A DNA stretch of 64,000 bases from an uncultured bacterium (GTDB lineage: Bacteria; Babelota; Babeliae; Babelales; Babelaceae). The notes beneath the pieces are model-generated. The model saw only the letters and a list, made by a program, of their open reading frames with translations. It did no database searches and was not told where the DNA came from. Below are positions 1 to 34,726 of this stretch, in pieces; within the stretch, counting starts at the first letter, position 1, and each line of letters begins with the position of its first letter. Location of the stretch: positions 32,001 to 96,000 of the forward strand of contig CAWGPQ010000006.1 in NCBI GenBank assembly GCA_963824495.1, given 5' to 3'. The position numbers and the translations under genes are program-made.

Positions 1-1105
1 CGGTAGCTACTGACCCTCGCCCTTTCTCCATGCGTGATTCAAGAACGTAGCCACGAGCTAATACTTCAGTGTGAGCAGTTAATTCCATAAGCTGTGACTG
101 CAAAATAATAAGATCAAGCAGTTCGTTAACACCTTGGCCAAGTTTAGCAGAAATAGGAACAACAACGGTTTGACCACCCCATTCTTCAGGTACAAGATCG
201 TATTGTACTAAACCTCGCTTTACTGCTTCAATTTGCTGCGCTGTGGCCTTGTCAATTTTATTGATAGCAACAATAATCGGTAGTCCAACTGCTTTTGCAT
301 GTTTAATAGCTTCTATTGTTTGTGGCATAATGCCATCATCGGCGGCAACAACAAGAATAGCTATATCAGCTACTCGTATGCCACGCTCTCGCATACGAGA
401 GAATGCTTCATGGCCTGGCGTATCGAGAAACACAAGATTACCGTGAGGTGTATAGGCTTCATAAGCACCCAAGTGCTGTGTTATGCCACCTTTTTCTTTA
501 GCTGCTACGCGCGTTTTTCGAATAAAATCAAGAAGTGTTGTTTTACCATGATCAACATGGCCGATAACTACAACAATAGGAAGTCGCGATTCTCGAGCTC
601 CTTGCTCTATTTGTGCATGAGTATGATGGCTCAATGCTTTTTTCACAGCAGGTTCACTCGTTTTAATACCGTAATGCTGGGCTATTTGGCTAACAATTTT
701 TTCTGATACTACCTGATTTTTATTGGCAGCAAAACCTTGGCGAAGAAGCATCAGAATGATTTCGCTAACAGGCTTACTTACGTGTGCTGCAAGGTCGGCT
801 ATGGTCATGGGTTCAAGCGGCATAGCCACAGGCTCTAAAGGCTTAGCTTGGGACCGTGATGCCTCAGGAGAGCGTGAAGACGGCTGTGATGGAGTTGCTG
901 TGACGGGAGCAGGCTCTTGAGCTGTGCTTATATGAGGAGTGCTAGGCTGATTGCTGTTCAGCTTTTTTTCAAGAAATGTTTGAGCATCTGGTGAGAGCAC
1001 AGACATATGACTTGCAATATCAAAGCCACCTTCTTGAAGTAGTTTGACAAGCTCTTTCGTGGGAAGCCCATATTTTTTAGAAAATTCGTATACGCGCATT
1101 GTCAT
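1..1105 (-). CDS. infB: Translation initiation factor IF-2, 5' part (runs off window)
   Basis: Not in the ORF track. Manual minus-strand translation from ATG 1105 (or 1099) gives [20 protein letters not shown]; GTPase motifs VIGHVDHGK (~570-541) and [10 protein letters not shown] (~430-401); directly downstream of nusA. Confidence 0.97.
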
Positions 1106-1153
1106 GTACGTTATGCCATTCGTGCTTTGTAGCAATAGCTCATTAATAGCTCA

Positions 1154-2248
1154 TTAAATTTGTTCGTTATGAGGCTGCTGGAGCTCTCCTGATTCTTCTA
1201 CTTCTTCTATTAGATCGAGTGGCTCATGTTTCATCAAATGAATGTTAAGCCCTGTTAACTGACAAGCAAGTGCTATATTTTGACCCATTTTACCTATGGC
1301 AAATGATCGTTGATCTTCATCAAGCCAGACTTCTACGTTTTTGTTATCGATCATTTCAACACGATTAATCTTTGCGGGTTTTAAAGCATCTCTTACTAAT
1401 TCTTCAATTGAGCTGCTAAATCTAATAATATCAATTTTTTCACCACCTAATTCACCAAGAATTGGCTGGATTCGGGTACCTCCAATGCCAACGCAGGCTC
1501 CTACAGGATCAATGTTCTTACCGTGTGATACTACCAAAACTTTTGATTTATATCCAGCCATACGGACAACTTTATTGATTTCGACGATTTTCTCGTAAAT
1601 TTCCGGGATCTCAAGCTTAAAAAGCTTTGCCAAGAATTCGGGGGACACTCGATCAAGAATGAGTTGATTTTCGTTACGTGGTTCAGGTAAAACTTCTTTA
1701 AGCAGAGCTCGAATAGTATATCCTACCGTGCACTTATCACCAGGTATAGTAAGCGACTTTGGCAAAAATGCAAGGGTATCACCAATTTTTACGGTAACTC
1801 CCATACGTTCGCATTTGTGTATAACACCTTGAACAATTTCGCCTTCTTGAGGTTTAAATTCGTTGTAGATAGCTGCAGCTTCAATGCTACGGATCTTTTG
1901 GGCAATGATCTGTTTTGCTTTTAAGATCTCGATACGACCGATGGGCCCCTCAAAAGGAACCTCGATGCTATCGCCAAGCTGGACATCTTCTTTTATCGAG
2001 CGAGCCTTACGCAGGCTGACTTCTTTGTCTTCATCAGTTACGCTGCTTACTACACTTTTTACAGCGAAAGTCTCAATTTCATCGGTTTTTTTGTTGTAAT
2101 GCACTGCAAACGTTATAGTGGGATATCTTTTTTCATAAGCAGCAAGCATGCCTTCGCACATGATGGTGCTTAATACAGCACGATCCAGGCCTTTCTCTTC
2201 AACGAGTTCTTCTATGACATTCGACAGTTTCACAACTTTTCCTAGCAA
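1154..2248 (-). CDS. nusA: Transcription termination/antitermination factor NusA (short form; likely start GTG 2233)
   Basis: GRIEILKAKQ, S1 domain, DPVGACVGIGG, EKIDII, AIGKMGQNI KH motifs; upstream of infB. Confidence 0.97.
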   Translation of the reverse strand: MLGKVVKLSNVIEELVEEKGLDRAVLSTIMCEGMLAAYEKRYPTITFAVHYNKKTDEIETFAVKSVVSSVTDEDKEVSLRKARSIKEDVQLGDSIEVPFEGPIGRIEILKAKQIIAQKIRSIEAAAIYNEFKPQEGEIVQGVIHKCERMGVTVKIGDTLAFLPKSLTIPGDKCTVGYTIRALLKEVLPEPRNENQLILDRVSPEFLAKLFKLEIPEIYEKIVEINKVVRMAGYKSKVLVVSHGKNIDPVGACVGIGGTRIQPILGELGGEKIDIIRFSSSIEELVRDALKPAKINRVEMIDNKNVEVWLDEDQRSFAIGKMGQNIALACQLTGLNIHLMKHEPLDLIEEVEESGELQQPHNEQI

Positions 2249-2379
2249 AATTAAGAATCATTTACACCAGCACGCTTAGATAGCATAACAAAAAAATGAG
2301 CAGATTGAAAGCCGGAGTATACACCTTTTGGGTAATCGTAAAAGTTGATAGTCCCAAAAAAGGTTTCAGTCTGTGTAAA

Positions 2380-2695
2380 CACCTACTATTACTTTATTAT
2401 TAATACCGATAGGTATAGTAGTAGTAGGTGAGGCACTTTTTTGTGGATAACTGGTCTAAAACGCACTCAATATATCGATTCAGTCGACCTTTGTTCATTT
2501 GTGGATAACTGGTGGATAACTGGTGGATAATTTGTGGATAACTTTTTTGACGTGCTGTAATCTAGCGCTATCAGCTTATTCTCGACATGTTTAATCTTGA
2601 GAAAATCGATAGCATCGATCAATGCTAAAAAAAAGAGCTTGACGTTTTTTGAGTTTTCCACATCGTTTCCACCAGTTATCCACCAGTTATCCACA
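2380..2695. promoter_or_regulatory. Candidate chromosomal replication origin (oriC): DnaA-box arrays, DnaA-trio-like tracts, AT-rich core
   Basis: TGTGGATAA at 2442, 2500, 2533; GGTGGATAA at 2511, 2522; opposite orientation TTTTCCACA 2654, GTTTCCACC 2665, TTATCCACC 2676, TTATCCACA 2687; (TAG)4 at 2416-2427; CTACTATTACT at 2383-2393. Confidence 0.8.
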
Positions 2696-2758
2696 TTTTG
2701 CACGTTTAAACTTTTTGTTTTTGTTTCAATGAGGGATTTTGTCTTTTTAAATACAAAC

Positions 2759-3394
2759 TTATATTTTTTTTAGGTGGTGAGTTATCGTCAAAAGATCGTG
2801 CTGAAAGTCTTTCTCAGCGGGTCGGTTACGTAGCACATAAGCAGGGTGATACGTGGGAATAAGCAGTATACCGTGATAATCAAGAGGCTTGCCTCGTACT
2901 TGAGTTATAGAAATGGGGCGTTCTAGTAATCCCTGAAGCGCTGATGAGCCTAGGGTGCATATAATCTTGGGTCGCACAATCTTAATTTCATCTAAAAGCA
3001 GCGGTTTATAGGCCTTTACTTCACTTGGTGTCGGTGTTCTATTCTCCGGAGGCCGACATTTAACAAGGTTAGTAATGAATACATCTTTCCTATCGAGATG
3101 AGCGTTCTTAAGAAGCTCAGTAAGAAGCTTGCCAGAGCGGCCAACAAAGGGTCTACCTTGTTCATCTTCATCTTTACCAGGGGCTTCTCCTATGAACATA
3201 ACCTCGGCATCAGCATTGCCTTCGCCTGTTACAAGCTGTGTGCACGCCAGAGTGTCGACTAGGCAATTCGGACAATGACGATAGGGTGCATAGAGCTCAT
3301 TGAGCAGCTTTTGCTTGAATTCTTTTTTATCCATTTTTACAATTTGAGTTAGGGTGTTGCTTTTGATAACTGTCATGGTGTTTAAGCTTACCAT
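2759..3394 (-). CDS. Uracil-DNA glycosylase family 4
   Basis: [34 protein letters not shown] motifs; true start may be the downstream MDKKEF. Confidence 0.95.
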
Positions 3395-3547
3395 TACGCA
3401 ACTGAAAAATACAGCTTACATAAGATTATTTTTGTATGTGCTTGTTGCTCGGTGCTAAGAATTAGGTATAAGCGCAACAGTATATGCAACAAGATATGCG
3501 ATAAGAATTTGTTGCGATTATAGTATAACTGAAAAAATAAAACAAGC

Positions 3548-4687
3548 CTAGCGCTTAGTATGATTAAGCCATGCAAGTCCAAAAGTAAGAACAAAACTTA
3601 ACTGGAAGTCGAGAAAGAAAAGTTGAAGGGGGTTAGTCAGAAGTATGCAGCAACATGCCAGGCACAAAACATGTAATGGATGAATGGCGATGTTAAGCAA
3701 CATACAAGTCTTATAGAGAGCATAGGTAAGCAAAGCGCGGATAAATGACACACTTGACCATGATAAAAGTGAATATATTGCCGTAAGAGCTATGATAAGA
3801 AGTTGCTTTATACTAAAATGGCAGGGTATATAGCTCATAATTATTCCACATATAAGTGCAAAGATGACCACATGTAGTCCCGATCGTGCAAGATAATGTG
3901 TTATGCCCCACGCTTGAAAGTATTTTCTCATGCTACTCATATTATTAAGAGAGTCAGGCTTTTTACCCAAAAATAACGGGCAAAATAACGTGTACGTTTG
4001 AGCTGACATTTTGTTTTTTAAGCTTTCTGCTACATGCATGCGATGAAAGGAGAGCCATCTCTTGATTAACTCCCTCAATGATTGTCCTCGTTTAAGCACG
4101 CTATAGCGTGGATTTTTCATAAAAACTGTTGCGGCATAACCTTCCTTAAAAAGATACTTTTGATATGAGGCGTTGGTACTTGGCCTAAAAAATATGTCTT
4201 TTACTTCAAGAGTATCGCCTACGTTAGCGCTCAAGGGCATCGGCGTGTACAGTTTAATTAACTTCCCCTGAGCGTTTTGACTGTTATGCCCCTTTATAGT
4301 TAGTCGATTAATTTTAAGAGTATGGGCATATGGTTGTTGTCTGTTACTTGTTTTTTCAGCATCTTCAAGCGTAGCTTGTATATCTGCTTTACAGAGGTTT
4401 AGTTGCTGCGTGAGCTCTTTATAAGAGCTCACTTGCTGATAATAACGCAAAGCTCCTGCAAAAAAGAATAAGAGAGCCAAGCATGCAAGCCGATAAACCT
4501 GGGCAAATAGTTCACGACTACTTATTAAGCCACTGATTGCCAGAGCAACTGCTACACCAACTATGAGCGGTAGTATAAGCAGGCTGTTAAAAGCTTGCCA
4601 GAGTATTCCTGCTATAAGAGAGAGCGTAAAAATAAGAAAGGGTGGAATATGAAACGGAAGAATTATGTACACTTGAAACTTATGCAA
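3548..4687 (-). CDS. comEC: ComEC/Rec2 competence membrane protein (no C-terminal metallo-beta-lactamase domain)
   Basis: GITHYLARSGLHV, SFIRA, NP...DFQLSF motifs; multiple TM segments. Confidence 0.85.
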   Translation of the reverse strand: MHKFQVYIILPFHIPPFLIFTLSLIAGILWQAFNSLLILPLIVGVAVALAISGLISSRELFAQVYRLACLALLFFFAGALRYYQQVSSYKELTQQLNLCKADIQATLEDAEKTSNRQQPYAHTLKINRLTIKGHNSQNAQGKLIKLYTPMPLSANVGDTLEVKDIFFRPSTNASYQKYLFKEGYAATVFMKNPRYSVLKRGQSLRELIKRWLSFHRMHVAESLKNKMSAQTYTLFCPLFLGKKPDSLNNMSSMRKYFQAWGITHYLARSGLHVVIFALICGIIMSYIPCHFSIKQLLIIALTAIYSLLSWSSVSFIRALLTYALYKTCMLLNIAIHPLHVLCLACCCILLTNPLQLFFLDFQLSFVLTFGLAWLNHTKR

Positions 4688-4777
4688 AATAAGAAATATA
4701 AGAAATTTTATAGCATAATTACTAGCATAATTAAATATATAAATGTGTCAAAGATTGCTCTATTTGATATAGCAGAA

Positions 4778-5542
4778 TTATTGCCAGATTTTTACCTCAT
4801 CTACATGCATATAAGGTGGTGGATTAACTGTTGTCTCCGCTCCTTTTTGAGCATTGACTGTTATGTAGCCTTTCCGTCCGCACATGTTTGCCAACCAATC
4901 AGGTTTTTGAATGGTGCAACTCATATAGTCATAGGTAACCGGATCTAGTAATTCGATGAGAAAATTACCGTTCTCCAGGACTTTGATATTCCAATAACGA
5001 TATATAGCTGGGTTCTTTAAGGCCTCTTCTACTTTGAAACAGTCACCCATAGCTTTGCAGGTACTTTCGCTATTAGGATCACCTGGCCATTGGCACCATT
5101 TTTGTGTTGGTTGGTTACAGTCACCACACAAATAAAAAAATCCTGTATAACTGTTCTCCGGAAATACCCAACCATATTCTCCACCGCCATTATAACATCG
5201 TTTTTCATGGAAAAATAGCGCAAATTCATTCTCACGTTTGCCAAGAACATTCTTATAAACCAATCCCTTGAAGGAGATACCCTTTACGTTGTAAAGCTTA
5301 TCACTTATCCAACGCTTACTCGTCATTCTATATTCACCTGAACAATCTGGTTCAGGAAACCAAGATTTACCCTCGGTGGGAAAGCGTGTCGAATAAACAT
5401 GTGTACTCAAGTTGCCACAAGGTGGATTTTTGCAGGGATAGATATACGTGTGAGGCAATGATATCTGATTCCAACTACCATTAGCACATGCTATTCCCGT
5501 TACAATAAAGGTCAAAATATAGCAGAAATAAGTTAATCTCAT
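4778..5542 (-). CDS. Secreted Cys/Trp-rich hypothetical protein, possible ConA/GH16-like beta-sandwich
   Basis: N-terminal signal peptide; many Cys; C-terminal YMHVDEVKIWQ resembles the last strand of GH16/ConA folds. Confidence 0.55.
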   Translation of the reverse strand: MRLTYFCYILTFIVTGIACANGSWNQISLPHTYIYPCKNPPCGNLSTHVYSTRFPTEGKSWFPEPDCSGEYRMTSKRWISDKLYNVKGISFKGLVYKNVLGKRENEFALFFHEKRCYNGGGEYGWVFPENSYTGFFYLCGDCNQPTQKWCQWPGDPNSESTCKAMGDCFKVEEALKNPAIYRYWNIKVLENGNFLIELLDPVTYDYMSCTIQKPDWLANMCGRKGYITVNAQKGAETTVNPPPYMHVDEVKIWQ

Positions 5543-5836
5543 ACATCGCCTCGTTAATTCAAACTAATTTAACAACTCAATTTAATTATATTATGCAATT
5601 ATTATAATCATATAAATAATTAATTACATTTGTCAATAGTTGATATGGCGATTCAGGTCAATCGCACGAACTAAGCCAACTTCGCCGAGGGCTACGACGG
5701 TCAAGGGCAGCAATAACAGAAAGAAAGCAGTCAACCGTTAGGCCATATGAGCACACAGGTGCAAAACGTGCTGGAAACGTTTAGTGGGATTAAACTTCGT
5801 GATGTCTGTCCCTAATTTCTTGAGGGTAATTTTGCC

Positions 5837-6652
5837 CTAATCCAAATATATAGAATAATATTTATTTAATAATTGTTTCAGTATATACAGTTCATTTTGA
5901 TACTCATGCTCTGGTCTACGTAGATCGTATAGAGCCTTAGCTCGAAAATGATAGGCATGTGCCGGTATCGCATCTTTTTTACTTTCGTACTCTTCACGTG
6001 TAAAAAAATCCACACGCTCTGCATTAATAATAGGTATATTTCTTTTCTGGAAAAATAAACCAATCAGAACATCATCAGGTAAATCAGAACTATATAGAAA
6101 GATATCTTCTTTTTCTTTTACCATCATTTCAACTAAATCAGGTGATACTATAATCCCCGCCCCTGAACCAAAATAAATCCTGCCAAACTTTGGACACGCG
6201 CTCTCGGGGATATACATAGAAATCGCACAGTAGCATTTTTGTTTTGGGAGCTTATTAAGAAATTTTAACAAGTTAGGGAAGTAATAAAATGAGGACAAAT
6301 TTGTTCGAATGACATAATCGAATTCTTTCAGCCTCGGCTGTATTGCTTCCATAGATAAAACTGTCTTATTGGCGATTCCGGGGCTATAATTTTCTGCTGC
6401 TTTAATAGTAATGGTATCGTTGCTGATCTCGTAATCTTTGGATAAATTTGGATCCCCTCTAATAAAATAAACTTCAAAGTGTTCCGGATCTCTATGCATG
6501 TAGGATTTCCATACCCTTTGGAGTTCGAGATAGGCTGGCACACCATCTGAAGCTATTATTAACACAAGTGTTTTCTTGGGTGGGACTTCATTTGCACCTA
6601 TACTATCTTGAAAGCACATTAATGTTAGCGAGAGCAGCAAAAATTTTTTCAT
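5837..6652 (-). CDS. Secreted GT-A-fold glycosyltransferase-like protein (GT31/Fringe-like)
   Basis: Signal peptide; FDYVIRTNLSS, FGSGAGIIVSPDLV, PDDVLIG motifs. Confidence 0.65.
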   Translation of the reverse strand: MKKFLLLSLTLMCFQDSIGANEVPPKKTLVLIIASDGVPAYLELQRVWKSYMHRDPEHFEVYFIRGDPNLSKDYEISNDTITIKAAENYSPGIANKTVLSMEAIQPRLKEFDYVIRTNLSSFYYFPNLLKFLNKLPKQKCYCAISMYIPESACPKFGRIYFGSGAGIIVSPDLVEMMVKEKEDIFLYSSDLPDDVLIGLFFQKRNIPIINAERVDFFTREEYESKKDAIPAHAYHFRAKALYDLRRPEHEYQNELYILKQLLNKYYSIYLD

Positions 6653-6844
6653 CTTTAAATTTCTTTAACCACGTTTACGCTTTCTCCTGCCCTTACTCAA
6701 GTAATGGGTTTGTGAAAGCACAATAATCTATTAAAGCTCAAGCATGTTCGCTTGTATGGTAGTCTGTTTATTCCGTGGTTATATTACCAAGAATGCGTGC
6801 TAAAGCAAGAGAATTTGTAAGGGTAGACGAAAATAGTTTATTAA

Positions 6845-7023
6845 GCTAAGCGGAAAACCCCATTGGCTTATCCGAGTCTGGGGATGAATGCTTATACCTG
6901 CGTGAGGTGTGACGGTTAGTAAAATTGGAGCCTAGTCAAGAGCAGTTTACTCTCTCTGCTGGCAATGACATGGGTCACCCTGTGCAGCAAGAACCCATGG
7001 CCTTTGGGCCATGTGAGCGTCAA
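6845..7023 (+). mobile_element. Non-autonomous IS200/IS605-derived mini-element with omegaRNA-like right end
   Basis: Left hairpin TAAGC..CCCCA..TGGGG..GCTTA (6847-6894); right hairpin CATGGCC-TTTG-GGCCATG (6996-7013) then TGAGCGTCAA ending 7023; ankyrin ORF similarity breaks at 7024; left boundary approximate. Confidence 0.7.
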
Positions 7024-7251
7024 TACAGCGATAGTTAATGGGGCTACGCCAGCTTCGTTCATAACATTAACGTTTGCACCTTGATTAAGTAAGCTCTCAG
7101 CCTCTAATGTGTCATCATTTTCGACAGCTTCAAGTAGAGCGTAACCAGGTGATTGTCGCTTGCTTGGTTGCAGTTGCTCAATACTATATGTGTTACAAGA
7201 TAGGCAGGTGACAAATAAGCTAAAAGTAGCGAAGCTTTTGCAAGATATCAT
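6916..7251 (-). pseudogene. Ankyrin-repeat protein truncated by the mini-element
   Basis: Signal peptide, ALLEAVEND..LLNQGANVNVMNEAGVAPLTIAV ankyrin consensus; residues after V76 are read from the element. Confidence 0.75.
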
Positions 7252-7283
7252 GAGTTAATTCCCCCAAGGGAGGTGAATTTAGT

Positions 7284-9143
7284 CTAACTATCTATAACGT
7301 CATTAAGGCCGCACGTGACTGCTTCTTTCTCATTAAGATATTCACGCACTTTGAATATCAATAACGAGAGTGCTGCAGGTGTCATGCCTTGAATAAGCGA
7401 TGCTTGCGCAATAGTAGTTGGTCGGTACTTCATGAGTTTTTGCTGTAACTCAATTGATAACCCTGGCATTCCAGTATAATCAAAGTCTATCGGTATTACC
7501 AACGATTGATAATGCTGCAATTTTTCGACTTCACGTTCTTCTCGCTTAAGGTATGGTCCATAGAGAAGTTCTGCATGAATCGATGCAAGAGCTCGCTCTG
7601 ATAATCTTGTAGTGCTTGCGTTAATAATCTTGTGTTTGACGGTACCGATATCACCCTGTGAGAGCAGGCGCATGAGCTCAACGCCCTCTTTGCCACTTTT
7701 AAGTTTTGCTGCAAGTTCCTCTATAAGCTTTTTTTCTTGTTGTATATCGTTATAGCATTGCTCGTTTATAAGACCTAACGTGTAAGCACGTTCGCCAAGT
7801 CTGCTAAATACGTTATCTTGACGCAGAAGCAGACGTCGTTCTGCTCGTGATGTAAACATACGGTATGGCTCATCGACACCGAGGCTGACCAGATCGTCTA
7901 TCATAATACCAATATACCCTTGGGTTCGATCTATAATAAAAGGTTCTTTGCCTGTGTGCTTAAGATGGGCATTAATACCAGCTATAATACCCTGGCCGGC
8001 AGCTTCTTCGTAACCGGTTGTACCATTAATCTGTCCAGCAAGAAATAAACCTGAAATGGCTTTGAGCTCAAGGGTAGGGTGTAACTGGTTTGGTGCTATA
8101 AAATCATACTCCACGGCGTAGCCAGGTCTGACGATTTGTGCACTCTCAAAGCCGGGAATTGTCTGTATAAATTCACGCTGTGCTTCAAGTGGTAGTGATG
8201 TTGAGAGCCCGTTTGGATAGATCTCTTCACTACTTGCGCTTTCAGGTTCAACAAAAACGTGATGGCTCGTTTTATCAGGAAAGCGTGAAATCTTATCTTC
8301 GATTGATGGGCAATAGCGTGGTGGCGTGCCCTTGATGTGCCCCGTAAATATAGGCGATAGATTAAAGTTTTTTTTGATAACATCATGAGTTTCTTGCGTC
8401 GTATGTGTTATATAGCAGGCCATCTTGTGCTCTACTTTATGGGGATAGAACTCAAAAAGATACTCAAGCTCATCTGAACCTTGCTCTTCCATTTTTGAAA
8501 AATCGAGACTTGATCGTAATAAGCGGGGTGGTGTGCCTGTTTTAAGGCGTCCCATGCTCAAGCCAAGGCTTTTGAGGAACCCGGAAAGGCTCGAAACTGC
8601 TTCTTCGCCCTGTCGGCCTGCAGCGTAATTGGTTTGTCCTACATGAATAAGACCGTTAAGAAATGTACCTGTTGTTAAAATAACGGTTGAAGCATTATAA
8701 CGTGCTCCTTCACGTGTCCGAACTCCACGAACTCTCTTGTGCTCATCAAGAATAACCTCATCAACCATGCCCATGCTGAGCGTCAAGTTGGGAGTTTTTT
8801 CTAATACTTGTTTGCTGATTTTATTATAGGCGTGCTTGTCTATCTGAAGTCGGAGTCCTTGAACTGCTGGTCCCTTACGCGTATTAAGCATACGTGCTTG
8901 TAAATAGGTTTTAGTACAGAGTTGAGGCATAAGCCCCCCCAGTGTGCTAATCTCAAAGACGATATGACCTTTGCCTATTCCGCCTACGGCCGGGTTACAG
9001 GGCATATGACCTATACGATCAACATTCAGGGTAATCATAAGTGTTCGTGAGCCCATGCGTGCGGCAGCGTAGGCTGCTTCTATTCCTGCATGTCCACCAC
9101 CGACAACAATAACATCAAAATCTTGCCAAACGTGAGAACTCAT
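7284..9143 (-). CDS. mnmG: tRNA uridine 5-carboxymethylaminomethyl modification enzyme MnmG (GidA)
   Basis: [62 protein letters not shown] at 9143. Confidence 0.98.
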
Positions 9144-9387
9144 AGCTATTAATAAAAAACCTGAAAATGAGTGATAAAGCAAAGCGTAACTACATTACAG
9201 TTTATTCAAAAAGATAATAAAAATCAATGGCGAATGGCGATATGAGCACAAGCCTTCAAAAGATCCTATGATCCCTAGCGGAATATAGTACGGCTTATGT
9301 ATACTTCTTTTTATCAATCACAAGCGAATTCAAGATTACGACTTGAGCAGCTCTGATTGAGTTTCGTGTTATGAGGAAGGGAAGTGC

Positions 9388-11246
9388 ATGACAAGTTATA
9401 CGAAGCTCGTATTATTAGGCATCGCAACCTATTTTTGTAGTATGGGCGGAATGGATAGTCCTAACACCGCGCGTACCCGAAAGCAGTTTGAAGACATGTT
9501 CGCAAATGACCAGGAACTTGAGGATTCGTCAAAGCCTAGCGCTCCAGTGTTCATTGAAACAGCTAATGATGAAGTGATTAAGGTGCCGAAAGAAGTTCTT
9601 CCCCTCTCGCAAACCTTATTGAAAGCACAAGAAGCATGGGGGCAGATTAGACAGGATCTATTTACTGGAGGCGTAATCAAGATAAAGAATATATCAAAAA
9701 ACATCTTAATCATCTCTTTGAACTTGCTCTAAATCTTCGAAACAAAACGGTGATTCAAGCGTACCAAGAGCTTAGGGAAATTCTTCCTGGAGACGCGTAC
9801 GAGCCTTCACATATTGAGGTCATTGAAGGCTTACTCTATGCTGCTCAAAAGCTTAGCTTGCAATCACTTGCCATAAACATAGCAATTATTGAAAAATACA
9901 GTATCTTAAATTCTCAATTTAAATATCGGCTTACTGAACCCATTACTGAACCTCATAATGATGATGAAATTAATACAGCGTTTATTCGAGAGACTATCAA
10001 GAATTTTAAACAGGTAACGGGACAGTCAGCTCAGCTCAATATAGGTCCCATTGATCAACAGCTTTGTGAAGGCAAACGCTTTGACGTTAAGCGTGATGGT
10101 GATAATGGTAAAAGTAAACTTGATTTAGCTAGATCAAATTATACGAGCTTACTAGGTATTCACAATGTTCCTGATATAGAACAAGTACAAAGTTTAGATG
10201 TATCCAATAATGCTCTGCCTAGTCTTACGCCTTATATTGAGAAACTTGGTCAGCTTGAGGAGCTTATTGCTTCCGATAACAACCTTCGGGAAGTGTGCCG
10301 TCAGATCGGTGCGTTGGTTACTCTAAAAAAGCTTGATCTTGCGCGCAATCAATTGGAGAAACTTCCTGAAGAGATCGGAAATTTAACCGAGCTAGAAGTA
10401 CTTAATGCTTCGGGAAATAAACTCAAGAATGTATTCTCATTGATAAAAAACTTAACTAAATTACGTGAACTTAATCTTACAACAAATAGGATTGAAACGA
10501 TTCCCCCAGAAATTGGCAGCTTGACAAATCTTCAAAGGCTTTTCATGTCAAACAATACAGTTAGTGGTGTTGCGGCCGAAGTAGCAGCATTATTTCAGCT
10601 TGAGTCACTCGATCTATTGGGTAATCGTATTAGTGCACTTTGTCCAGAAATTGGCAGCTTAACTAACTTACAAGAGCTTGATATAGCTGGCAATAAGCTT
10701 ACAGAGCTTTGTCCACAAATAGGTAACCTAGTTAATCTTGTTACGCTGCATGCTCAAGCTAACAAACTCAATATAATCTGTCCTGACATTAGAGGTCTTG
10801 TGAACCTTCAACACCTTAACATTTCGGGAAATAAGCTCAAAGAGCTTTGCCGGGAAATTAGTAATTTAGTCAATCTCAAATCGCTTGATATTTCAGGAAA
10901 TAAACTGGTAGGGTTGCCAGATAGTATACGTGGCTTAACAAGTCTCATTGAGCTTGACGCAAAAGATAATAGAATTATGAGCGTTTCTGCAGAAATTGGA
11001 AATCTTGTAAATCTTCAGAAAATTAATCTGGCGAGCAATAGCTTAGGCAGTATACCCATGGAATTTACTAGGCTGGAGCACCTTCAGCTGATAGACCTTT
11101 CGCATAACAGGCAGCTGAATACATTCCCCTTTCAGCTTCACAGTTTGCCTAATTTAAGAAGTGTTGTCTTGTTCAACAACAAAATAGTAAAGCCATTGCT
11201 AACTCCTCAACAAGAGCAAGAAAGAAAATATACTATTTATACGTGA
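9388..11246 (+). pseudogene. Signal peptide + Skp1/POZ-like domain + leucine-rich repeat protein, split by a frameshift at the A6 run 9696-9701 (ORFs 9388-9732 and 9750-11246)
   Basis: ~16 23-aa LRRs (LxxLDLxxNxLxxLPxEIGxL); adding one A joins ...IKNISK to KHLNHLFELALNLRNKTVIQ...; the LRR part could also be expressed alone. Confidence 0.75.
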
Positions 11247-14135: not shown

Positions 14136-15026
14136 TTATTTAGGAGTCATGTTAACCTCCAAAGGGTTAGACTGGTTTTGTAACTTAAATTGTGCAAATA
14201 ACTGTTGTCTTGTAGGCACAACTCTTAAAGCGAAAATGAGGTTTGGCGTGTGATAGTTAAGCGCCTGATGAGGTCGTTTTTGATTATAAAAATCAACATA
14301 GCTCCGCAAAGCTACTCGAGCCTGATCCACAGTATCAAAACTGTGCAGGTAAACGTTTTCGTACTTTATAGTACGCCATAATCGTTCGACATGAGCATTA
14401 TCAGCCCAGCGACCCTTGCCATCCATGCTCACCTTTATACCGTTTCCTTCTAATTGTACGATCCAAGAGGTACTGGTAAACTGGCATCCTTGGTCGCTAT
14501 TAATAATCTCCGGTATGCCATGCTTCAAGGCGTTTTCAAGTGCTTCAAGACATGATTGCGTATCAAGAAAAGTAGATAAGCTCCATCCCATAATTCTTCT
14601 GCTAAAGACATCGAGCAAGCACACTAAATAAACAAAGCCAAGTCGTACCTTTATATAGGTGATGTCAACGGTCCATACCTGATTAGGGCGATCAATGCTA
14701 AGTTCACGTAGAAGATAGGGGTATACTTTGTGTCCCCGATCTCGTATAGTTGTTTTCTTTGTAGGATAAACAGCTTTTATGCCTGCAAGAGCGAGCAATC
14801 CTTGTAACCTCTTGTGATTGATAACGAAGCCTCTTTGCCTCAGAGCAACAAGAATACGGCGATAGCCATAAAATGGTGTTTCTTGATAAATACTTCTAAC
14901 CTCATTCAATATAGTCGCATCGTTACTTTTTAACGGCCTCGGTTGATAATACATCATGCTTCTCGCAACACCCAAAAGTTCGCATTTTCTTTTTATACCT
15001 ATCGCTTCATTACCGTGCTCAATCAT
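14136..15026 (-). CDS. IS3-family transposase OrfB (DDE integrase core)
   Basis: PFYGYRRI, PNQVWTVDITYI, NSDQGCQF, DNAHVERLWRTIKYE. Confidence 0.95.
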   Translation of the reverse strand: MIEHGNEAIGIKRKCELLGVARSMMYYQPRPLKSNDATILNEVRSIYQETPFYGYRRILVALRQRGFVINHKRLQGLLALAGIKAVYPTKKTTIRDRGHKVYPYLLRELSIDRPNQVWTVDITYIKVRLGFVYLVCLLDVFSRRIMGWSLSTFLDTQSCLEALENALKHGIPEIINSDQGCQFTSTSWIVQLEGNGIKVSMDGKGRWADNAHVERLWRTIKYENVYLHSFDTVDQARVALRSYVDFYNQKRPHQALNYHTPNLIFALRVVPTRQQLFAQFKLQNQSNPLEVNMTPK

Positions 15027-15046
15027 CTCTTTGCGTTTTTCACTAC

Positions 15047-15322
15047 TTAACGTTTGAGCACATGTCCTAAAAAATCACGTTCCGCAGTTAATTGTCCAAT
15101 AACACGATGCAATCTATCTATTTCTGCTTTATGGTCTACTTCTCGCTTATCTTCAAAGATCTTATTGCTCTCTTCCTCCAGCTGCTTTTTCCATGCAAAT
15201 ATTTGACTTGCTGAAATGCTATACTCTTGGCATAATTCTGCAACTGTTTTCTTTTCTTTTAGGGCCTCTAGAGCTACCTTACTCTTAAATGAACTTCCAT
15301 GTTTCTTGTATATTCTTGCCAT
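15047..15322 (-). CDS. IS3-family transposase OrfA (HTH)
   Basis: FKSKVALEAL..TVAELCQEY..QIFAWKKQ; OrfB lies in the -1 frame. Confidence 0.93.
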   Translation of the reverse strand: MARIYKKHGSSFKSKVALEALKEKKTVAELCQEYSISASQIFAWKKQLEEESNKIFEDKREVDHKAEIDRLHRVIGQLTAERDFLGHVLKR

Positions 15323-29155: not shown

Positions 29156-29553
29156 TGTTTTGCTGAACGCATTTAATAACTTGTTGGTGAGCAGGAATAG
29201 TATGTTCTGGAAGTTGATCTATTCTAAAAAACCGCCATGTCATCATGTTTTTCTGGTTCATTGTTACGTGGTGCCTGCATATTCGTAATGTCCACTTTAA
29301 AACAAAGAGCAACCAATTCAGTTTCAGTTCCTTTGCGATGTAACGTGTGTACCAACTCGAATGCGGGCTCAGGTATTTCAAGTGCTGTTTCTTCACATAC
29401 TTCACGCTTGATAGCCTTCCTGGCCGTTTCACCCTGTTCTACTTTGCCCCCTATTAAACTGTATAATCTATCACCAAAAGTTGCATTACAACGACGAGCC
29501 AACAAGACCGTGTCACCAGTACATAAGAATGCCAGAGCAAACAGGTTAATCAT
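29130..29553 (-). pseudogene. NUDIX hydrolase with a frameshift near 29235
   Basis: GGKVEQGETARKAIKREVCEETAL Nudix box; NNEPEKHDD continues as FFRIDQLP in another frame. Confidence 0.85.
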
Positions 29554-33925: not shown

Positions 33926-34726
33926 ATGATGTATAAATTTTTGAACGCAGTGATATTGATAGCAGTATGCTTAATGTATAGCACGTATGCTCTTACACTT
34001 CAAGGTACTATTCGAGAGCTTGATCAAATATGGGTGCTATCAGAATATCTTGAAGATCTACATATATTTGAGCACATGTCTGCCAAGCAAGAAGAACAGA
34101 TATATGATCAGCATCAGCAATTATTAGGGTTGCTTCCGCTCTATCTAGAAAAATGTGGTGATGCATGTATTAGCTATGATCATGAAAAGCACGCATCGAT
34201 TTTAAACTCACCTGCATTATTACTTAAAATTGTACAATCTGTTAAGATATCCGCTCGCGTATATGATGAAAAAACTTTTGGTGATCTATCTATCCGTGAT
34301 CTTATGAGGCATGCATCGATTTTAAAATCGCCTGAATTATTACTTAAAATTGTACAATATGTTAAGATGTCCGCCCGTGTATATGATGACGAAACTTCGT
34401 CTATAGCTTTTGATGATGTACTTATTCGTGATTTTAGACACCTTATGCGTCTAAAATACACTATGACAGGTATTAAGTCGGTTATCGAAAACCAAGCAGA
34501 TACTGTGCAAGCACGTTTGAAGTTATGGCCATCCTTGCTCAGCTATATACAGCATCATGCTGCTTGGTTTATAACGTATGCTCAAGATAGTTATGCTCGA
34601 TTATTTGATAAGTATCAAGAACTTGAGGCACAAGTTGCATCGAGTATTATTGACTCCATGATCAAAAGTGACCAAATCTTTATTGATGACCTTACATGCG
34701 TAATGCATGAAGATATCTTAAAATAG
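33926..34726 (+). CDS. Hypothetical secreted protein with internal 40-aa duplication
   Basis: Signal peptide; HASIL.SP.LLLKIVQ.VK.SARVYD occurs twice. Confidence 0.7.
   Translation: MMYKFLNAVILIAVCLMYSTYALTLQGTIRELDQIWVLSEYLEDLHIFEHMSAKQEEQIYDQHQQLLGLLPLYLEKCGDACISYDHEKHASILNSPALLLKIVQSVKISARVYDEKTFGDLSIRDLMRHASILKSPELLLKIVQYVKMSARVYDDETSSIAFDDVLIRDFRHLMRLKYTMTGIKSVIENQADTVQARLKLWPSLLSYIQHHAAWFITYAQDSYARLFDKYQELEAQVASSIIDSMIKSDQIFIDDLTCVMHEDILK
34189..34449 (+). repeat. Imperfect tandem duplication, 120-bp offset
   Basis: GCACGCATCGATTTTAAACTCACCTG at 34189 vs GCATGCATCGATTTTAAAATCGCCTG at 34309. Confidence 0.9.

What the first reader, a model, noticed from the sequence alone, without database searches (positions are those of the whole stretch)
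2442..2695. Mirror-symmetric, helically phased DnaA-box arrays: candidate oriC away from dnaA
Seen: four boxes at exact 11-bp spacing (2500, 2511, 2522, 2533) and four in the opposite orientation, also 11-bp phased (2654, 2665, 2676, 2687). They include a perfect 28-bp inverted repeat (2500-2527 / 2668-2695). A ninth box is at 2442. Known: TTATCCACA is the DnaA box, phased arrays template DnaA oligomers, and gidA/mnmG (4.6 kb away) is often origin-linked. Inference: this is oriC, placed between nusA and udg rather than beside dnaA, with unusually strict two-fold symmetry.
Basis: partly seen in the sequence, partly recalled or inferred. Interest (0 to 1): 0.8.

Follow-up and report, generated by a model that had tools for sequence, protein, structure and literature searches.

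The report
Mirror-built Babeliales chromosome replication origin
This 400-base gap beside nusA is very likely where an uncultured Dependentiae (Babeliales) bacterium starts copying its chromosome, far from its dnaA gene, and its likely melting zone carries predicted initiator-binding repeats in mirror image on both strands, which would give a simple way to launch both replication forks.

Summary
The arrays and the 28-bp inverted repeat are real; the site at 2665 has three mismatches. This is very probably oriC (0.93). It is the genome's best DnaA-box cluster (8 boxes against 3 for the next), and the contig's GC-skew minimum lies at window 2273. In five near-complete relatives the skew flips at the same element, with dnaA 0.38-0.44 of the chromosome away. 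The layout recurs upstream of nusA in 47 of 55 Babeliales regions. This scan has reported the same origin in seven other Dependentiae genomes, and opposed 11-bp arrays are the E. coli plan, so neither location nor arrays are new. Not found in my searches: (1) a second trio tract on the opposite strand, in 17 of 24 Babeliales against 0 of 23 Bacillota box-trio sites; (2) three lineages with Asn for Asp in the DnaA recognition helix have no canonical boxes; (3) no relative tested has dnaA at the skew switch, unlike the published placement for Babela. No binding or unwinding was tested.

The parts
1154..2248 (-). nusA, transcribed away from the unwinding element (true start probably the GTG at 2233); conserved flanking gene
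   Evidence: ORF, Pfam; linkage in relatives
2364..2373 (-). Unexplained 10-bp motif CAGACTGAAA just beyond the second trio tract (a second copy at 2301-2310, plus strand)
   Evidence: motif defined after seeing the data; 31 copies in 23 of 53 origin regions against about 2 expected
2380..2396 (+). Second (distal) trio tract, CACCTACTATTACTTTA, the mirror image of the proximal tract; its 3'-GAT-5' repeats lie on the minus strand
   Evidence: inverted repeat I8; shuffle p 0.004 and 0.006
2383..2423 (.). Predicted DNA unwinding element, among the weakest 0.8% of 40-bp duplexes in the window
   Evidence: nearest-neighbour energies typed from recall
2416..2427 (-). Proximal DnaA-trios, (CTA)4 on the minus strand, 3'-GAT-5' repeats on the plus strand, 14 bp from the lone box
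   Evidence: sequence; criteria from PMC8287927
2428..2441 (-). Spacer with GC cluster between lone box and trios
   Evidence: sequence; positional base frequencies over 40 genera
2442..2450 (-). Lone perfect DnaA box (R1-like anchor)
   Evidence: conserved in relatives
2451..2499 (.). 49-bp linker that keeps the lone box in helical phase with the array; likely bent by HU or IHF
   Evidence: start-to-start 54-58 or 65-69 bp in 42 of 48 genomes; IHF consensus not enriched
2500..2541 (-). Proximal array: four boxes at 11-bp pitch, same orientation as the lone box
2542..2653 (.). 112-bp spacer between the arrays; sequence not visibly conserved
2654..2695 (+). Distal array: four sites at 11-bp pitch in the opposite orientation (2665 degenerate)
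2759..3394 (-). udg (uracil-DNA glycosylase), transcribed toward the distal array
   Evidence: present in 38 of 55 regions

Best explanation
This is very likely the single DnaA-dependent chromosomal origin (oriC) of a Babeliales bacterium, in which DnaA would bind the lone box at 2442 and the two opposed 11-bp arrays and would melt the AT-rich tract at 2383-2423 by growing a filament onto the adjacent DnaA-trios. Shown here: the boxes, their phase, the trios, the weak duplex, the skew switch at this site and conservation across the order. Inferred from E. coli and B. subtilis work: ATP-DnaA oligomerises head to tail on each array; the 49-bp linker bends (two HU/IHF-family genes are present) so that the proximal array joins the lone box; the filament stretches the trio strand and opens the duplex; helicase is then loaded, probably with DciA (present). 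The arrays are likely enhancers and the lone box, trios and AT tract the core, because some relatives keep only the core. dnaA sits in the terminus half of the chromosome and acts in trans.
For: Best box cluster in the genome, 8 against 3. Cumulative GC-skew minimum of the contig at C6:34,273 = window 2273. Five near-complete relatives sampled at 20 stretches each: raw skew positive in 46 of 49 stretches right of the element and negative in 44 of 46 left of it; local minimum 0.15-1.1 kb from the arrays. Three more relatives flip around nusA/udg on 4-5 samples each. 31 of 37 tRNA genes lie on the locally G-rich strand, so G-rich is taken as leading and the switch as origin, not terminus. Two opposed arrays plus lone box in 47 of 55 regions. 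No cluster at dnaA: 0 boxes within one mismatch in 3.5 kb around it here, 0-4 in 30 dnaA loci. Three of three testable genomes with Asn at the position matching E. coli Asp433 have no box with canonical CC at positions 5-6 (0/8, 0/10, 0/9), while 43 of 44 Asp genomes have at least one. Box, spacer of at most 16 bp and three or more trios meet the published definition.
Against: No binding, unwinding, autonomous replication or coverage gradient was measured. The skew minimum in this genome is shallow (-697 against -662 at 48 kb), its third-position minimum is about 5 kb away, and the assembly has 21 contigs. ORF orientation bias is weak: 49-58% point away from the element. PMC4378268 places the Babela massiliensis origin 152 nt upstream of dnaA. 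The IHF consensus is not enriched in the linker, 7 against 4.9 expected. Three Asp-bearing genomes also have mostly variant boxes, so the residue is not the only determinant. Relatives are not independent samples.
Confidence: 0.93

Rival explanations
1. A datA- or DARS-like DnaA titration or nucleotide-exchange site lying near, but not at, the origin.
For: Most boxes are near-consensus and tightly packed, as expected for a DnaA sink; the skew minimum in this genome is shallow.
Against: No second cluster exists in the assembly; local skew minima fall within 1.1 kb of the element in 5 of 5 relatives; trios and an AT tract are attached and outlast the arrays in G029 and G057.
Confidence: 0.04
2. 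The origin is at dnaA, as published for Babela massiliensis, and this element is a DnaA-controlled regulatory region for the nusA-infB operon.
For: PMC4378268 predicts the origin 152 nt upstream of dnaA; the element is always directly upstream of nusA.
Against: In 17 of 17 genomes with both on one contig, dnaA lies at least 433 kb away and inside a replichore in the five sampled; no box cluster at dnaA; in G029 and G057 another gene lies between the element and nusA. I did not test the Babela genome by name.
Confidence: 0.02
3. Sub-question, given oriC: the mirror symmetry, including the second trio tract, is a by-product of concerted evolution between inverted repeats or serves hairpin/cruciform extrusion, and DnaA uses only the proximal trios.
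For: Arms within a genome resemble each other more than arms of other genomes: arrays 26.5 against 23.0 of 31, DUE arms 10.6 against 10.0 of 16. The tract folds into a hairpin of about -12 kcal/mol. In this genome no DnaA box anchors the second tract. The tract is absent or weak in 27 of 53 relatives.
Against: The distal tract keeps the trio register and a C/G edge across many genera while the AT core between varies; five genomes carry a complete box-spacer-trio module on both strands. Shared box variants in both arrays are also expected if both follow one DnaA's specificity.
Confidence: 0.5

Closest known systems
Escherichia coli oriC (DUE, R1, IHF region, Left and Right DnaA-oligomerisation regions)
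   Same: Unwinding element at one end; a strong box next to it; a gap of 46 bp (E. coli) or 49 bp (here) to the first array; two oppositely oriented arrays of four sites 2 bp apart; flanking transcription away from the DUE (PMC6727663 passages; PMC13643167 introduction).
   Different: Array sites here are mostly consensus or one-mismatch, not low-affinity; no central R2-like box in this genome; no enriched IHF consensus; no conserved gidA link; trios on both strands.
Bacillus subtilis basal unwinding system (DnaA box, spacer, DnaA-trios, AT-rich tract)
   Same: Box, spacer of at most 16 bp with a GC cluster, then repeated 3'-GAT-5' trios and an AT tract (PMC8287927 passages).
   Different: Single anchor box in most genomes; not next to dnaA-dnaN; a second tract on the opposite strand, seen in 0 of 23 Bacillota box-trio sites. 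B. subtilis is proposed to mark the second strand with DnaD bound opposite the trios (PMC10201434).
[quoted passage not shown]
   Same: Five Babeliales relatives have an inverted box on the far side of the AT tract.
   Different: There it is one box with its own trios, not a cluster, and this genome lacks it. I read only the introduction and first part of the discussion of PMC13643167; they do not describe mirrored trios.
Published origin predictions for Babeliales isolates
   Same: PMC6561590 predicts an origin for Chromulinavorax destructans at 651,641-652,233 from GC skew and a TTATCCACA box, so a box-marked origin in this order is probably already in print.
   Different: The passages seen name no flanking genes or architecture. 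PMC4378268 puts the Babela origin at dnaA, which no relative tested here fits.

Membership tests
DnaA-dependent bacterial oriC | Intergenic cluster of DnaA boxes, the best in the genome | tested here: met
   8 boxes within one mismatch in 300 bp, next best 3
DnaA-dependent bacterial oriC | Lies at the negative-to-positive GC-skew switch | tested here: met
   (shallow here); in 5 of 5 near-complete relatives
DnaA-dependent bacterial oriC | AT-rich unwinding element about two turns from a DUE-proximal box | tested here: met
   weakest 0.8% of the window, 18 bp from box 2442; no superhelical (SIDD) calculation run
DnaA-dependent bacterial oriC | Intact cognate DnaA whose specificity fits the boxes | tested here: met
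   (split in this assembly, intact frame in contigs of two runs from two studies); covariation
DnaA-dependent bacterial oriC | DnaA binding, ATP-dependent opening and initiation shown experimentally | not testable with these tools
   needs biochemistry or replication profiling
Basal unwinding system (BUS) | At least three trios within 16 bp of a DnaA box | tested here: met
   four CTA repeats 14 bp from box 2442; criterion
Basal unwinding system (BUS) | Strand separation that needs box, trios and ATP | not testable with these tools
   strand-separation assay required
E. coli-type DUE / Left-DOR / Right-DOR layout | R1-like box, bendable gap, two opposed arrays at 11-bp pitch | tested here: met
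   (11 bp in 202 of 257 steps; the box filter favours 10-12 and 21-23 bp)
E. coli-type DUE / Left-DOR / Right-DOR layout | Specific IHF site in the gap | tested here: inconclusive
   one-mismatch site here, but 7 of 34 against 4.9 expected
E. coli-type DUE / Left-DOR / Right-DOR layout | Arrays of low-affinity sites between strong R1, R2, R4 | tested here: not met
   7 of 8 array sites are within one mismatch of consensus and no central box within one mismatch lies between the arrays; affinities not measured
datA / DARS regulatory loci | Box cluster apart from the origin, without an unwinding module (definition recalled) | tested here: not met
   sits at the skew switch with trios and AT tract

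The most novel reading that the evidence does not exclude
Babeliales origins have a two-fold symmetric unwinding element: two converging DnaA-trio tracts on opposite strands each take a DnaA filament (fed by the two opposed arrays, or by a second inverted box where present), so that DnaA alone marks both strands and loads the two helicases symmetrically, with no strand-specific partner such as DnaD.
Probability: 0.33. Interest if true: 0.72.

Novelty: new variant of a known kind. Interest (0 to 1): 0.42.

Why it matters
As an origin call it is ordinary and already repeated within this scan. Its value is as a clean natural test case. How the second helicase is directed to the other strand is described as unresolved in PMC10201434; mirrored trio tracts give a direct prediction that can be tested with one purified DnaA and synthetic DNA. 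The Asp-to-Asn lineages with altered boxes offer natural pairs for the DnaA recognition code. For Dependentiae genomics, chromosomes should likely be oriented at nusA-udg and not at dnaA, which matters for growth-rate estimates from coverage.

Tried and rejected
Rfam on 1-10,000: no family. mnmG linkage: 0 of 20 loci in relatives, some of which overlap. IHF consensus enrichment: none. Sigma-70 promoter scan 2200-2800: 4 weak hits against 2.2 expected, uninformative. ParB N-terminal family: no match in this 96.9% complete genome, so parS could not be used as a second origin marker. A true dnaA pseudogene: rejected, since contigs of runs X1 and X3 restore the frame at the A-tract (depth under 3, one contig each) and only 3 of 220 tested genes show frame changes. 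Out-of-sample test of the Asn rule in G051 and G015: no tandem boxes found; their origin regions seem unassembled, so untested. A second outgroup (phylum of G262) gave only 2 hits in 101 genomes and was not analysed. No RNA holder listed. Reads over the arrays: tool unavailable. Literature: seven searches; none showed a paper on Babeliales oriC architecture or on mirrored trios. The one supplement file held for PMC8287927 does not name Babela, TM6, Dependentiae or Chromulinavorax; that file may be cut or lack the table. DoriC could not be queried, bioRxiv supplements are closed and most subscription papers are missing, so absence from print is not shown.

Full report
OBSERVATION. The intergenic stretch 2249-2758 lies between nusA and udg, both on the minus strand. 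Eight of the nine sites named are within one mismatch of TTATCCACA; 2665 has three. Both arrays have an exact 11-bp pitch, and 2500-2527 pairs perfectly with 2668-2695. In the 1.33-Mb, 21-contig genome (96.85% complete) this is the best cluster, 8 boxes in 300 bp against 3, and it holds 4 of the 12 perfect boxes.

ORGANISM. The closest nusA relatives with taxonomic titles are Candidatus Babeliales / Dependentiae (TM6) records.

Read on the minus strand, box 2442 is followed by a 14-bp spacer with a GC cluster, four CTA repeats (2427-2416) and an AT-rich tract that is among the weakest 0.8% of 40-bp duplexes in the window. This meets the published definition of a basal unwinding system: at least three trios within 16 bp of a box (PMC8287927, passages). 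The far end of the tract carries the same repeats in mirror image (2380-2396 against 2414-2430). The full order is nusA, mirrored trios, AT core, trios, spacer, lone box, 49-bp linker, four boxes, 112 bp, four inverted boxes, udg.

POSITION ON THE CHROMOSOME. Cumulative GC skew of contig C6 is lowest at 34,273 (window 2273), but the trough is shallow and the third-position minimum is at 29,351. I therefore sampled five relatives (G002, G004, G026, G027 single-contig; G045 main contig; all treated as circular) at 20 stretches of up to 20 kb each. Raw skew is positive in 46 of 49 stretches on one side of the element and negative in 44 of 46 on the other, and the local minimum lies 0.15-1.1 kb from the arrays. 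G052, G054 and G029 flip in the same place on 4-5 samples each. In this genome 31 of 37 tRNA genes are on the G-rich strand, which supports reading the switch as origin; ORF bias is weak (53%). dnaA is on contig C11 with no box within one mismatch in 3.5 kb. In all 17 genomes that have dnaA and the element or nusA on one contig they are at least 433 kb apart; in the nine single-contig genomes this is 0.37-0.48 of the circle. Thirty dnaA loci hold 0-4 scattered boxes.

CONSERVATION. A three-box phased pattern matched 40 of 61 genomes, control 0. Anchoring on nusA instead, I obtained 55 regions from the 61 genomes (left out: G013, G016, G020, G051 with no nusA hit; G021, G023 with the element and nusA on different contigs; G035 was kept from its pattern locus). 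47 of 55 have two opposed arrays and a lone box. Of the eight others, G015 ends at the contig edge, G010 has visible variant arrays that my filter missed, and G011, G032, G034, G036, G029, G057 have decayed arrays with box, trios and AT tract retained. The pitch is 11 bp in 202 of 257 steps (the filter keeps only steps of 10-12 or 21-23 bp), and the lone box is 54-58 or 65-69 bp from the array in 42 of 48 genomes, a whole-turn difference. udg flanks 38 of 55 regions; mnmG was in none of 20 loci.

THE BOXES FOLLOW DnaA. Residues 432-435 of E. coli DnaA make base-specific contacts (PMC5043019, passages). Of 47 genomes with both a domain IV and an origin region, three, from three families, have Asn for the Asp; none of their boxes has the canonical CC at positions 5-6 (0/8, 0/10, 0/9). 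Among 44 Asp genomes, 43 have at least one CC box and 40 a majority; G041, G042 and G049 mostly use TTATCAACA and G032 is degenerate. Two more Asn genomes could not be tested. Three cases are suggestive, and I built no tree.

SYMMETRY. The 28-bp perfect repeat ranks 17 of 47 in the group, so it is not unusual there. Arms within a genome match better than arms across genomes (arrays 26.5 against 23.0 of 31, higher in 30 of 34; unwinding-element arms 10.6 against 10.0 of 16, higher in 26 of 40), which fits shared selection or concerted evolution equally. Opposite-strand trios in the distal half beat shuffles of that half in 26 of 53 genomes (19 of 40 genera); a same-strand distal tract scored in 1 of 53 (the anchor choice used proximal trios, so only the distal count is unbiased). 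With one strict entry pattern, 17 of 24 Babeliales sites (14 of 21 genera) but 0 of 23 sites from a 151-genome sample of a Clostridia MAG's phylum have them. A strict box-trio-AT-inverted-trio pattern hit 28 of 261 phylum genomes, control 0, 15 of them among the 40 other members of this genome's family; G006, G022, G025, G028 and G151 match on both strands, meaning a second inverted box. Against function: about half the relatives lack the tract, this genome has no box anchoring it, and it can fold as a hairpin.

MECHANISM. Inferred, not shown: ATP-DnaA oligomerises on both arrays; the linker bends with HU or IHF (two genes; consensus not enriched); the lone box nucleates a filament on the trios and opens the AT tract; helicase loads with DciA. 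The dnaA split in this assembly is likely an error. The bolder reading is that the second tract takes a second filament on the other strand, giving symmetric helicase loading (probability about one in three).

COMPARISON. The plan is that of E. coli oriC: R1, a 46-bp gap, two opposed arrays of four sites 2 bp apart (PMC6727663, passages; PMC13643167, abstract, introduction and first part of discussion), joined to a B. subtilis-type trio module. It differs in near-consensus array sites, mirrored trios and a dnaA in the terminus half. PMC6561590 (passages) predicts a box-marked origin in Chromulinavorax without describing it; PMC4378268 (passages) places the Babela origin at dnaA, which fits none of the relatives tested, though I did not test that genome by name. 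The preprint 10.1101/2025.08.05.668638 (passages) gives prediction criteria that this site meets by sequence, SIDD untested. PMC10201434 (abstract and passages) treats second-helicase loading as open. This scan reported the same origin in seven other genomes and once on this stretch; I saw these notes after forming my reading. A look-up for twin trios found no note, and the notes are shown only in brief.

VERDICT. A real and very probable oriC of a known kind, with one variant feature, the mirrored trio tract, that is statistically supported and functionally untested. Interest 0.42.

Noticed in passing
L001:974-2382 (G000:C11, about 170.0-171.4 kb): dnaA is split into 317-aa and 140-aa frames at an A-tract in this assembly; contigs from two runs of two studies have the open frame, so likely an assembly error.
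   Followed up: yes
window 2364-2373 (minus) and 2301-2310 (plus): A 10-bp motif CA[AGC]A[TC][AT]GAAA recurs just outside the unwinding element or the distal array in 23 of 53 origin regions (31 copies, about 2 expected; motif defined after the fact). Possibly a site for an unknown origin-binding protein.
   Followed up: partly
L201:2388-2824 (G057): A gene resembling only DnaA domain IV, in two frames, lies between the origin core and nusA; the full dnaA is on another contig, and the arrays there have decayed.
   Followed up: partly
L225:4170-4250 (G029); L186, L190-L192 (genus g12): Genus g12 has shrunken or degenerate arrays but keeps box, trios and AT tract; in G029 an ankyrin-like gene separates the core from nusA.
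   Followed up: partly
L193 (G038), L194 (G043), L199 (G054): Whole-origin shifts of the box sequence (TTATGAACA, TTATCGACA, TTATGCACC/TTATCAACC) go with Asn in place of Asp in the DnaA recognition helix.
   Followed up: yes
L030 (G007 C3 and C16): The array and nusA appear twice in G007; it is 7% contaminated, so probably a binning duplicate.
   Followed up: no
window 9750-11246 (plus): 498-aa leucine-rich-repeat protein, of the host-directed type common in protist parasites (recalled).
   Followed up: no
window 14136-15322 (minus): Two ORFs that look like an IS3-family transposase pair (judged from the translation, no family search).
   Followed up: no
G000 whole genome: No ParB N-terminal domain found; DciA and two HU/IHF-family genes are present. 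No rimP-sized ORF (80 aa or more) lies directly upstream of nusA.
   Followed up: partly
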